In this document: piece after piece, positions 1-583 of the stretch
Layout: the number at the start of each line of letters is the position of its first letter
How positions within the stretch are numbered: the stretch's first letter is position 1
Sequence record: FN641801.1
Length of the DNA stretch: 583 bases
Direction: 5' to 3' (one strand)
Source: a phage
Made by a program: the position numbers and the translations under genes
The notes under the pieces: model-generated
What the model was told of the DNA's origin: nothing
Database searches by the model: none
Seen by the model: only the letters and a program-made list of their open reading frames with translations

Positions 1-22
1 ATTTGGGGGGTTCAGCCGATGA
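1..22 (+). other. Footprint of degenerate forward g23 PCR primer (MZIA1bis-like), inosine positions read as G; primer-derived, not native sequence
   Basis: Bases 1-22 (ATTTGGGGGGTTCAGCCGATGA) match the 3' 22 nt of the primer I recall as 5'-GATATTTGIGGIGTTCAGCCIATGA-3' if each inosine is read as G (window positions 6, 9 and 18, all codon third positions). The window starts exactly inside this primer and the G-run at 5-10 is what I/G substitution would produce. Confidence 0.75.
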
Positions 23-583
23 ATAACCCTACCGGCCAGGTATTTGCCCTGCGTGCAGTTTACGGTAAAGACCCTGTAGCTGCTGGTGCTAAAGAAGCTT
101 TCCACCCGATGTATGCTCCGAACGCTATGTTCTCTGGTCAGGGCGCTGCTGAAGCTTTCGAAGCTCTGGCTGCAAGCAAAGTTCTTACCGTTGGTAAAAT
201 TTATTCTCACTTCTTCGAAGCAACCGGTTCTGCACACTTCCAGGCTGTTGAAGCTGTAACCGTTGATGCCGCCGCTACTGATGCCGCTAAACTTGACGCT
301 GAAGTTACCAAACTGCTCGAAGCTGGTAAGCTGGCAGAAATCGCTGAAGGTATGGCTACTTCTATCGCCGAACTTCAGGAAGGCTTTAACGGTTCCCAGG
401 ATAACCCGTGGAACGAAATGGGCTTCCGCATCGATAAACAAGTTATCGAAGCTAAATCCCGTCAGCTGAAAGCAAGCTACTCCATCGAACTGGCACAGGA
501 CCTTCGTGCAGTACACGGTATGGATGCAGATGCTGAACTGAGTGGTATTCTTGCTACTGAAATCATGCTGGAAATCAACCGCG
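1..583 (+). CDS. 23: Major capsid protein gp23 of a T4-type (T-even-like) myovirus; internal fragment, partial at both ends (about 194 codons, frame 1)
   Basis: Seen in sequence: frame 1 is open across the whole window (codons att tgg ggg gtt cag ccg atg aat aac cct ... atc aac cgc), while other frames are interrupted. The translation contains long motifs I recognise from T4 gp23: GVQPMN-PTGQVFALRAVYGKDPVAAGAKEAFHPMY, ATDAAKLDAEV, EIAEGMATSIAELQEGFNGS-DNPWNEMGFRIDKQVIEAKSRQLKA-YSIELAQDLRAVHGMDADAELSGILATEIMLEINR. By my recollection this corresponds roughly to residues ~110-305 of the ~521-aa T4 gp23; that numbering is from memory and not computed. Codon usage is strongly biased (GCT Ala, GAA Glu, GGT Gly, AAA Lys, CTG Leu), as expected for a very highly expressed structural gene. 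Confidence 0.95.
   Translation, partial: MWGVQPMNNPTGQVFALRAVYGKDPVAAGAKEAFHPMYAPNAMFSGQGAAEAFEALAASKVLTVGKIYSHFFEATGSAHFQAVEAVTVDAAATDAAKLDAEVTKLLEAGKLAEIAEGMATSIAELQEGFNGSQDNPWNEMGFRIDKQVIEAKSRQLKASYSIELAQDLRAVHGMDADAELSGILATEIMLEINR
559..583 (+). other. Footprint of reverse g23 PCR primer (MZIA6-like, present as its reverse complement); primer-derived
   Basis: Bases 559-583 (GAAATCATGCTGGAAATCAACCGCG) are the exact reverse complement of the primer I recall as 5'-CGCGGTTGATTTCCAGCATGATTTC-3'. The window ends precisely at the primer's 5' end and encodes the conserved EIMLEINR motif. Confidence 0.75.

What the first reader, a model, noticed from the sequence alone, without database searches (positions are those of the whole stretch)
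118..330. Amino-acid differences from T4 gp23 cluster in a central patch while the 3' two-fifths is almost invariant
Compared with T4 gp23 as I recall it, most substitutions fall between roughly codons 40-110 (e.g. YAPNAMF, AAEAFEALAASKVLTVGKIYSHFFEATGSAHFQAVEAVTVDAAATD, EVTKLLEAGKLAEI). From about nt 331 onward the protein appears nearly identical, with two isolated differences (S-Q-D near 391-399, K-A-S-Y near 469-480). This mosaic of conserved flanks and a variable core is the property that makes this amplicon useful for typing T4-like phages. The variable patch plausibly maps to a surface-exposed part of the capsid subunit under host or immune selection; that structural placement is inference, not verified here.
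Basis: partly seen in the sequence, partly recalled or inferred. Interest (0 to 1): 0.5.

Follow-up and report, generated by a model that had tools for sequence, protein, structure and literature searches.

The report
Known phage capsid-gene amplicon, variable surface domain
The window is a standard PCR amplicon of the major capsid gene of the known coliphage vB_EcoM-VR5, and its patch of differences from phage T4 is the capsid protein's fast-evolving surface "insertion domain", a pattern already described in the literature, so the finding is correct but ordinary.

Summary
The window (frame +1) aligns without gaps to T4 gp23 residues 111-304. Of 30 genuine amino-acid differences, 27 lie in codons 39-112 (nt 115-336). 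A scan statistic picks exactly this interval (0/1000 permutations).

- **Origin:** nt 1-22 and 559-583 are the MZIA1bis and MZIA6 primers. Between them (nt 23-558) the sequence is 100% identical to vB_EcoM-VR5, a Dhakavirus, not a Tequatrovirus.
- **Structure:** the dense core (codons 51-112, gp23 161-222) matches the roughly 60-residue insertion (I) domain that forms bumps on the capsid surface. The conserved flanks encode the I-domain linkers and the start of the spine helix.
- **Selection:** synonymous rates are flat along the fragment, while nonsynonymous rates are about 5-fold higher in the patch. Omega is about 0.2-0.46 in the patch and 0.04-0.1 in the flanks. No codon shows a significant nonsynonymous excess. 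This fits relaxed purifying selection, and host or immune-driven selection is not demonstrated.

The pattern holds across the family (65 sequences) and is published. In passing: VR5 and ESCO10 carry a Gaprivervirus-like recombinant block (nt ~36-459) in a Dhakavirus-like g23.

The parts
1..22 (+). Footprint of forward primer MZIA1bis (GATATTTGIGGIGTTCAGCCIATGA, minus its first 3 bases). The three inosines are read as G (nt 6, 9, 18). This creates a false Trp codon (TGG, codon 2; Cys in T4 and VR5) and imposes Met at codon 7, where VR5 has Leu.
   Evidence: Primer sequence from PMC5011856. String comparison. All 5' mismatches to the VR5 genome (nt 6, 9, 12, 18, 19) lie here.
23..114 (+). Conserved 5' flank: gp23 residues about 118-148, covering the P-domain-proximal strand and the proximal part of I-domain linker 1. 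There is one real difference from T4 (N9, which is S119 in T4).
   Evidence: dN 0.015, omega 0.015 against T4. Family mean entropy 0.58 bits. Linker 1 includes aa 132-160 (PMC9546572).
115..150 (+). Transition zone: codons 39-50 (gp23 149-160), the distal part of I-domain linker 1. Two differences from T4 (A39, N41).
   Evidence: In the family alignment, insertion columns follow codon 50.
151..336 (+). [quoted passage not shown] 25 of 62 residues differ from T4. The conserved positions are Gly, aromatic or aliphatic scaffold residues (F53, G65, I67, F72, G76, Q81, D99, G109).
   Evidence: Omega is about 0.33 against T4, 0.2-0.46 pairwise and 0.42 by parsimony counting. The I-domain assignment rests on PMC9958956, PMC9546572 and PMC10229621.
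271..276 (+). Codons 91-92, equivalent to T4 G201/A202. This is the flexible, solvent-exposed I-domain loop where a 9-residue insert is tolerated in T4. Natural deletions in relatives fall at codons 89-94, with insertion columns after codons 89-90.
   Evidence: The PDB 8GMO chain carries DEDEDEDED between the residues that align to window codons 91 and 92. PMC10229621. Indel map.
337..558 (+). [quoted passage not shown] Two isolated differences from T4 (Q133, S159). Both sit at the few high-entropy positions of this segment.
   Evidence: omega 0.045; mean entropy 0.32 bits; entropy 2.1 at codon 133 and 1.7 at codon 159. Residue 292 is in the spine helix, and linker 2 makes intercapsomer and Soc contacts (PMC9546572).
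559..583 (+). Footprint of reverse primer MZIA6 (exact reverse complement of CGCGGTTGATTTCCAGCATGATTTC).
   Evidence: The 3' mismatches to VR5 (nt 564, 568, 582) all lie here.
36..459 (+). Side finding: a Gaprivervirus-like (VR26-type) recombinant block inside the otherwise Dhakavirus-like g23 of VR5, also present in ESCO10. The right junction lies between nt 459 and 504. The left junction is poorly defined (about nt 33-36 or further upstream).
   Evidence: Informative-site max-chi-square test: 36 VR26-type to 6 JS98-type sites inside, 53 to 308 outside, 0/300 permutations. Nucleotide distances. Synonymous-only test. ESCO10.

Best explanation
The window is the MZIA1bis/MZIA6 PCR amplicon of gene 23 (T4-type major capsid protein, HK97 fold) of coliphage vB_EcoM-VR5. 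Its differences from T4 cluster because the middle of the amplicon encodes the gp23 insertion (I) domain. This is a globular module of about 60 residues, inserted in the E-loop position, that protrudes from the outer capsid surface. Only its scaffold residues and the face resting on the neighbouring subunit are constrained. Most of its other residues face solvent, so amino-acid replacements and small indels are tolerated and accumulate about 5 times faster than in the flanks. The flanks encode the I-domain linkers (E-loop equivalents that make intra- and inter-capsomer contacts and form the Soc binding sites) and the start of the P-domain spine helix. They are under strong purifying selection. 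The mutation rate and divergence time from T4 are the same along the fragment, and only the protein-level constraint differs.

Shown here: the clustering, the flat dS, the raised dN, the family-wide variability and indel map, and the coincidence with the 9DE insertion site. Taken from published structures: the surface location of the I domain and the contact roles of the linkers. Inferred: the exact I-domain limits (about 161-220) and that relaxed constraint, not adaptive diversification, is the main cause.
For: - **Identity:** Pfam Gp23 PF07068 scores 152 bits against a cut-off of 24.4. The alignment to T4 gp23 111-304 has no gaps. Both primer footprints are present. nt 23-558 are 100% identical to VR5 (best hit).
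- **Clustering:** the scan statistic picks codons 39-112 with 0/1000 permutations.
- **Flat synonymous divergence from T4:** dS is 0.97, 0.85 and 0.86 in the 5' flank, patch and 3' flank, while dN is 0.015, 0.28 and 0.039.
- **Tree-based counts (38 sequences):** synonymous changes per site are 7.1, 6.8 and 5.7; nonsynonymous are 0.61, 2.83 and 0.51; omega is 0.09, 0.42 and 0.09. No codon shows a nonsynonymous excess, and 101 codons are under purifying selection.
- **Pairwise, at every divergence level:** patch omega is 0.2-0.46 and flank omega is 0.04-0.13.
- **Family profile (65 unique sequences):** mean entropy is 0.58, 1.48 and 0.32 bits. Most indels fall inside the patch (after codons 50, 67, 89-94 and 106). 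Differences from T4 sit at the family's high-entropy sites (p = 2e-13).
- **Structure:** the I domain is a 60-residue globular surface bump (PMC9958956). Linker 1 spans aa 132-160, the I domain sits on the neighbouring subunit, and the linkers form Soc sites (PMC9546572). The solvent-exposed loop G201/A202 tolerates 9 extra residues (PMC10229621), and that insert aligns between window codons 91 and 92.
- **Paralogue comparison:** gp23 and gp24 are alignable by BLASTP only from gp23 residue 242 onward.
- **Published parallel:** MCP dN/dS is about 0.10, with a minority of relaxed sites on the outside of the fold (PMC4360716).
Against: - I could not compute solvent accessibility from coordinates, so surface exposure of the individual substituted residues rests on published descriptions of the domain, not on a per-residue test.
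- The I-domain limits are inferred from three published anchors. No source I could read states them.
- dS against T4 (about 0.9) is near saturation, and g23 has strong codon bias, so omega at that depth is approximate. Closer pairs give the same contrast, though.
- My per-site test (Fitch parsimony on an NJ tree with a binomial test) is crude and has little power. It ignores the recombination I detected, so a few positively selected sites could be hidden (for example codons 66, 69 and 133, with N well above S but not significant).
- Part of the I domain contacts the neighbouring subunit over about 650 square angstroms, so not all of it is free surface.
Confidence: 0.85

Rival explanations
1. 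The patch varies because of adaptive diversifying selection on the exposed capsid surface. Candidate pressures are host defence systems that sense capsid proteins, mammalian antibodies, or co-evolution with the decoration proteins Hoc and Soc.
For: The patch is on the outer surface. Its omega is 4-8 times that of the flanks. A few codons have many more nonsynonymous than synonymous changes (codon 133: 21.3 to 5.7; codon 69: 16.3 to 2.7; codon 66: 13 to 2). The block containing it has been exchanged between genera at least once, which could reflect selection for new surface variants.
Against: Omega stays well below 1 at every divergence level (0.2-0.46). No codon reaches even p < 0.1 for nonsynonymous excess. 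The only known host-defence trigger in gp23, Gol sensed by Lit, lies in what is described as the most conserved region of gp23, not in the patch (PMC3014915). Published codon-model work on T4-type MCPs found relaxed sites (omega = 1), not positively selected ones (PMC4360716).
Confidence: 0.12
2. The clustering against T4 reflects a DNA-level recombination mosaic: the central patch has a different, more distant ancestry than the flanks.
For: T4-type phages recombine. A real recombinant block (nt ~36-459) exists in VR5 relative to JS98 and VR26.
Against: Synonymous divergence from T4 is the same in the patch and the flanks (dS 0.85 against 0.97 and 0.86). Synonymous changes per site are uniform across the family. 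The higher divergence from T4 is therefore purely nonsynonymous. The detected block is wider than the patch, and it makes VR5 closer to another lineage, not further from T4.
Confidence: 0.03
3. The patch is an artefact: a compensated frameshift, sequencing errors or a PCR chimera.
For: The sequence is a PCR product whose ends were altered by the primers.
Against: 47 of the 74 patch residues are still identical to T4 in the same frame, with no gaps. nt 23-558 are identical to the independently sequenced complete VR5 genome. They differ at only 8 positions from the ESCO10 genome from France. The same variable region is seen in 65 independent sequences.
Confidence: 0.01

Closest known systems
Gene 23 of Escherichia phage vB_EcoM-VR5 (KP007359 / NC_028881; Dhakavirus vr5; low-temperature T4-like coliphage from Lithuanian sewage; Kaliniene et al. 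2010, Arch Virol 155:871, cited in PMC4690856)
   Same: nt 23-558 are 100% identical to VR5 genome positions about 102057-102592. All 8 mismatches lie inside the two primer footprints.
   Different: Only the primer-imposed bases differ (nt 6, 9, 12, 18, 19, 564, 568, 582). They give false W2 and M7 in the translation.
T4 gp23 insertion (I) domain and its linkers (PDB 5VF3, 7VS5, 6UZC, 8GMO)
   Same: The alignment is colinear and ungapped. The variable core matches gp23 161-222. The scaffold residues are conserved (F163, G175, I177, F182, G186, Q191, D209, G219). The loop equivalent to G201/A202 is present.
   Different: 25 of 62 I-domain residues differ from T4. Net charge over codons 51-112 is -4 against -2 in T4. 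No structure of the VR5 capsid exists.
MZIA1bis/MZIA6 g23 amplicons used to survey T4-type phages (Filee et al. 2005, as cited in PMC5943533 and PMC5011856)
   Same: Both primer sequences are at the window ends. The design is the same: conserved primer sites bracketing a variable region.
   Different: This amplicon comes from a cultured, fully sequenced coliphage and not from an unknown environmental phage. At 586 bp including the three missing primer bases, it is longer than the ~400-500 bp (or ~471 bp) those two papers give for this primer pair.
Published variability analyses of T4-type major capsid proteins (Comeau & Krisch 2008, Mol Biol Evol 25:1321, not readable here; Roux et al. 2015, PMC4360716)
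   Same: A conserved structured core with variable parts on the outside of the capsid. Overall dN/dS is about 0.1, with a minority of relaxed sites.
   Different: Nothing substantive. My numbers are for the amplicon region only and come from simpler methods.

Membership tests
T4-type major capsid protein (Pfam PF07068, Gp23) | Profile HMM score above the curated gathering threshold | tested here: met
   152.2 bits against a cut-off of 24.4, E = 3.4e-44, covering residues 1-194.
T4-type major capsid protein (Pfam PF07068, Gp23) | Colinear alignment to experimentally solved T4 gp23 | tested here: met
   Ungapped match of window residues 1-194 to gp23 111-304, E = 8e-102. 163 of 194 residues are identical.
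T4-type major capsid protein (Pfam PF07068, Gp23) | HK97 fold with an I domain inserted in the E-loop position | not tested
   Taken from published T4 structures. The fragment was not modelled, because the tools return no coordinates that would allow an exposure calculation.
MZIA1bis/MZIA6 g23 PCR amplicon | Both primer sequences at the two ends in the correct orientation | tested here: met
   nt 1-22 equal MZIA1bis bases 4-25 with I read as G. nt 559-583 equal the exact reverse complement of MZIA6.
Phage vB_EcoM-VR5 gene 23 (same sequence, not merely related) | Identity over all bases not derived from primers | tested here: met
   0 mismatches over nt 23-558. The next best genome, ESCO10, has 8 mismatches there.
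gp23 insertion (I) domain as the location of the variable patch | Contains the I-domain loop G201/A202 | tested here: met
   The 9DE insert of PDB 8GMO aligns between window codons 91 and 92. The loop is assigned to the I domain in PMC10229621.
gp23 insertion (I) domain as the location of the variable patch | A block of about 60 residues directly after I-domain linker 1 (aa 132-160) | tested here: met
   The dense variable core is codons 51-112, which is gp23 161-222 (62 residues). Linker range from PMC9546572 and domain size from PMC9958956. No source I could read states the exact limits, so they remain inferred.
gp23 insertion (I) domain as the location of the variable patch | The substituted residues are solvent-exposed in the assembled capsid (per-residue accessibility) | not testable with these tools
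   PDB coordinates cannot be read or analysed here. Only domain-level statements from the literature are available.
Region under positive (diversifying) selection | dN/dS above 1 for the region, or for individual codons with statistical support | tested here: not met
   Patch omega is 0.2-0.46. No codon has p < 0.1 for nonsynonymous excess in either the 38- or the 66-sequence set. The method is crude, so a few sites cannot be excluded.
   79.9% nucleotide identity to T4, against 100% to VR5 (Dhakavirus vr5) and 93.7-95.4% to the Gapriverviruses VR26/25/7/20.

The most novel reading that the evidence does not exclude
The I-domain-coding segment of g23 may behave as an exchangeable cassette. Homologous recombination in the conserved linker-coding flanks would move capsid-surface variants between T4-type genera. 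Here two Dhakaviruses (VR5 from Lithuania, ESCO10 from France) carry a Gaprivervirus-type block (window nt ~36-459). A second, independent discordance over the same block appears in a distant pair (L060 and L061). If such exchange is recurrent and selected, single-amplicon g23 typing would systematically misplace phages, and the capsid surface would join tail fibres as a horizontally traded module.
Probability: 0.25. Interest if true: 0.4.

Novelty: already known. Interest (0 to 1): 0.13.

Why it matters
It matters little as a discovery. The sequence belongs to a published phage, and the hypervariable surface I domain of gp23 between conserved regions is textbook knowledge for T4-type phages. 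It is also the design basis of the g23 marker.

There are three practical points.
- Primer-derived ends of amplicon records must be trimmed before protein comparison. Here they create a false Cys-to-Trp and a false Leu-to-Met change.
- Variability of this region is best read as relaxed constraint on an exposed domain, not as evidence of an arms race.
- In VR5 and ESCO10 the amplicon spans a recombination junction. Its nearest neighbours outside that pair are Gapriverviruses, although ICTV places VR5 in Dhakavirus. That is a caution for genus-level typing from g23 amplicons alone.

Tried and rejected
- **Other features in the window:** the Rfam scan on both strands gave only a chance-level hit (E = 0.51, 20.8 bits against an 80-bit threshold). 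There are no tandem repeats. The short ORFs in other frames lie inside a gene whose frame +1 is open throughout and matches gp23, so I dismissed them.
- **Frameshift, error or chimera:** rejected.
- **Different ancestry of the patch relative to T4:** rejected by the flat dS.
- **Explicit I-domain residue limits:** Chen et al. 2017 (PMC5625921), Fokine et al. 2005 (PMC1129118) and Comeau & Krisch 2008 are not held. The Fang 2022 supplements are not held, and the Zhu 2023 supplements give no numbers.
- **Mapping the I domain through gp24:** this failed because BLASTP aligns gp23 and gp24 only from gp23 residue 242 onward.
- **PMC10580926:** it looked relevant to selection on gp23 but turned out to concern capsid stability, not sequence evolution.
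- **Wasted or flawed calls:** one literature search was wasted on a loose query. My NJ bootstrap split test for the recombinant block was uninformative, because both splits are compatible in an unrooted three-group tree. I rely on the distances and the max-chi-square and synonymous-only tests instead.
- **Not run:** Solved T4 capsid structures exist, and the tools return no coordinates for an exposure calculation.

Full report
**What the window is**

Frame +1 is open over all 583 bases, while the other frames are full of stops. The translation matches Pfam Gp23 (PF07068) at 152 bits against a cut-off of 24.4. It aligns without a single gap to residues 111-304 of the solved T4 major capsid protein gp23 (PDB 6UZC, 5VF3, 8T9R; E about 1e-101).

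The two ends are primer sequence. nt 1-22 equal bases 4-25 of MZIA1bis (GATATTTGIGGIGTTCAGCCIATGA) with each inosine read as G. nt 559-583 are the exact reverse complement of MZIA6 (primer sequences from PMC5011856; comparison). The window is therefore the standard g23 marker amplicon for T4-type phages.

A megablast search against 50,697 phage records puts Escherichia phage vB_EcoM-VR5 on top at 98.8%. The base-by-base comparison shows mismatches only at nt 6, 9, 12, 18, 19, 564, 568 and 582, all inside the primers. So nt 23-558 are 100% identical to VR5. VR5 is Dhakavirus vr5, isolated from sewage in Lithuania. It was described by Kaliniene et al. 2010 (reference seen in PMC4690856). Trp at codon 2 and Met at codon 7 are artefacts imposed by the primer.

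**Check of the observation**

I took the T4 g23 DNA from NC_000866. Against it there are 31 amino-acid differences.

| Position | Differences from T4 |
|---|---|
| Codon 2 (W) | 1, a primer artefact |
| Codon 9 (N) | 1 |
| Codons 39-112 (nt 115-336) | 27 |
| Codon 133 (Q) | 1 |
| Codon 159 (S) | 1 |

With primer codons excluded, a likelihood-ratio scan over all intervals selects exactly codons 39-112, and 0 of 1000 permutations reach its score. Fisher's test gives p = 2.4e-9. The dense core is codons 51-112, where 25 of 62 residues differ. The limits are nt 115-336 and not 118-330.

**Is it mutation, ancestry or selection?**

Nei-Gojobori estimates for the window against T4:

| Segment | dS | dN | omega |
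|---|---|---|---|
| 5' flank (codons 9-38) | 0.97 | 0.015 | 0.015 |
| Patch (codons 39-112) | 0.85 | 0.28 | 0.33 |
| 3' flank (codons 113-186) | 0.86 | 0.039 | 0.045 |

Equal synonymous divergence means the patch is neither a mutational hot spot nor of different ancestry relative to T4. Only protein-level constraint differs.

Because dS near 0.9 approaches saturation, I repeated the analysis on 67 related loci from IMG/VR plus T4. In every divergence bin, including dS below 0.1 and 0.1-0.3, patch omega is 0.2-0.46 and flank omega is 0.04-0.13.

I then made a SLAC-like count (NJ tree, Fitch reconstruction of codons) on 38 sequences with at least 78% identity:

| Segment | Syn. changes per syn. 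site | Nonsyn. changes per nonsyn. site | omega |
|---|---|---|---|
| 5' flank | 7.1 | 0.61 | 0.09 |
| Patch | 6.8 | 2.83 | 0.42 |
| 3' flank | 5.7 | 0.51 | 0.09 |

No codon has a nonsynonymous excess even at p < 0.1, and 101 codons show significant purifying selection. The 66-sequence set gives the same picture. The data fit relaxed purifying selection. They give no positive evidence for diversifying selection, although the test is crude.

**The pattern belongs to the family, not to this pair**

Across 65 unique protein sequences (55-99% identical to the window), mean column entropy is 0.58, 1.48 and 0.32 bits for the three segments. The fraction of invariant columns is 33%, 5% and 53%. Most indels fall in the patch: insertion columns after codons 50, 67, 89-90 and 106, and deletions at codons 89-94. 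The one smaller exception is at codons 25-30.

The VR5/T4 differences sit at the family's most variable columns (Mann-Whitney p = 2e-13). This includes the three outliers N9, Q133 and S159, which occupy high-entropy columns (2.1, 2.1 and 1.7 bits) of otherwise conserved segments. Inside the patch, the few conserved positions are Gly, aromatic or aliphatic residues (F53, G65, I67, F72, G76, Q81, D99, G109). That is what one expects of a small folded domain with a conserved scaffold and a free surface.

**Structural placement**

[quoted passage not shown] It is joined by long linkers equivalent to the E loop (PMC9958956). Fang et al. 2022 place one linker at aa 132-160. [quoted passage not shown] They also state that the linkers make intra- and inter-capsomer contacts and, with the N-fist, form the Soc binding sites, and that residue 292 lies in the spine helix (PMC9546572).

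Zhu et al. [quoted passage not shown] They inserted nine acidic residues between G201 and A202 without loss of viability (PMC10229621). The corresponding PDB chain (8GMO) shows DEDEDEDED between the residues aligned to window codons 91 and 92, in the centre of the patch and at the site of natural indels.

Putting these anchors together, the dense variable core (gp23 161-222) is the I domain. The conserved 5' flank is the proximal part of linker 1. The conserved 3' flank is linker 2 and the beginning of the spine helix. The exact limits are my inference, because the papers that state them were not available. Consistent with rapid evolution of this module, T4 gp23 and its paralogue gp24 are alignable by BLASTP only from gp23 residue 242 onward.

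**Comparison with what is known**

All of this is established.
- The primer pair was designed on conserved blocks flanking a variable region (Filee et al. 2005, as cited in PMC5943533).
- Roux et al. 2015 report an overall MCP dN/dS of about 0.10, with 20 of 302 sites relaxed. [quoted passage not shown]
- The one known host-defence interaction of gp23, Gol peptide activation of the Lit protease, maps to what is described as the most conserved region of the protein (PMC3014915). This argues against host defence as the driver of the patch.

It is right on clustering, on the marker rationale and on surface location. It is unsupported on 'host or immune selection'. It is off target in treating the sequence as a T4 variant when it is phage VR5.

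**Side finding**

While computing dS for close relatives, I saw that VR5 against the Gapriverviruses VR26, VR25 and VR20 has dS of 0.06-0.15 in codons 9-112 but 0.36-0.43 in codons 113-186. Several further tests followed.
- **Informative sites.** Across 2,982 nt (g21 to g24), VR5 follows JS98 (Dhakavirus) at 308 of 361 informative sites outside a block at window nt 36-459. Inside the block it follows VR26 (Gaprivervirus) at 36 of 42 sites (max chi-square 110, 0/300 permutations; genera).
- **Distances.** In the block, VR5 differs by 2.1-4.5% from six Gaprivervirus-type genomes and by 9.2-10.1% from five Dhakavirus-type genomes. In the rest of g23 the order reverses (3.8-4.8% against 7.6-8.5%).
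- **Synonymous sites.** Half of the VR26-type sites are synonymous. A synonymous-only Fisher screen of 205 unsaturated pairs gives 10 Bonferroni-significant discordances. Nine involve VR5 or ESCO10 against Gapriverviruses. One is independent (L060 and L061).
- **Second genome.** ESCO10, a Dhakavirus from chicken in France, shares the block.

The amplicon itself therefore spans a recombination junction between nt 459 and 504. Its nearest neighbours after VR5 and ESCO10 are Gapriverviruses (95.4% to VR26 against 91.2% to JS98). That would mislead genus assignment from this marker. Recombination among T4-type phages is well known, so this is a new example and not a new kind of event.

**Verdict**

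The explanation is ordinary and already in the literature, and the sequence belongs to a known phage. Interest is low.

Noticed in passing
window 1-22 and 559-583: Both ends are primer sequence (MZIA1bis, MZIA6). The inosines were recorded as G. This gives a false Trp (TGG) at codon 2, where T4 and VR5 have Cys, and a primer-imposed Met at codon 7, where VR5 has Leu. nt 564, 568 and 582 are also primer-imposed. These bases should be trimmed before any comparison.
   Followed up: yes
window 36-459 (L004 VR5 1236-1659; also L073 ESCO10): VR5 and ESCO10 (both Dhakavirus) carry a Gaprivervirus-like block covering the I-domain-coding region. They differ by 2.1-4.5% from Gapriverviruses against 9.2-10.1% from Dhakaviruses in the block, and the order reverses in the rest of g23. 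The right junction lies between nt 459 and 504, inside the amplicon. Typing by g23 amplicon would place VR5 next to VR26/25/7/20 and not JS98.
   Followed up: yes
L060 and L061, region homologous to window nt 37-459: This is an independent pair of distant T4-type contigs (about 60% amino-acid identity to the window). Their synonymous difference is 0.44 in the block against 0.14 in the rest of the sampled g23 (Fisher p = 1.4e-8). It suggests a second exchange involving the same part of the gene. I did not determine which phages these are.
   Followed up: partly
L004 (VR5), about locus 480-600, i.e. window coordinates -720 to -600 (gene 22): There is a further short run of VR26-type informative sites in the scaffold gene 22 of VR5. 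In the same bin, VR5 and ESCO10 differ from each other by 27 of 150 nt although they are nearly identical elsewhere. The capsid-assembly module appears to be mosaic on a fine scale.
   Followed up: no
L032 (vB_EcoM_005, 155,101-bp record), homologous to window coordinates 974-1106 (downstream of the amplicon): This record has a 133-nt gap inside g23 relative to VR5 and JS98. The gap is not a multiple of three, and the genome record is about 15 kb shorter than its relatives. It is probably an assembly defect and not a viable capsid gene.
   Followed up: partly
window 1-36 (gp23 residues 111-122): From memory, and not verified here, the Gol peptide of gp23 that activates the e14 Lit protease is about residues 93-122. 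If so, its C-terminal end overlaps the start of the window, and the S119N difference (codon 9) would lie in it. The review I read gives only 'a 29-residue region' in the first quarter of gp23, and calls it the most conserved part of the protein (PMC3014915).
   Followed up: partly
L070 (T4) 8562-9233, compared with L002 (VR5) 2786-3052: Between g23 and g24, T4 carries the homing endonuclease gene segD on the minus strand. VR5, JS98, JS10 and VR7 carry a small hypothetical minus-strand ORF (about 88-93 aa) instead. This intergenic slot appears to be variable.
   Followed up: no
L070 (T4) gp23 against gp24: BLASTP similarity between the paralogues gp23 and gp24 starts only at gp23 residue 242 (window codon 132). 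The whole N-arm, linker 1 and I-domain part has diverged beyond pairwise detection.
   Followed up: partly
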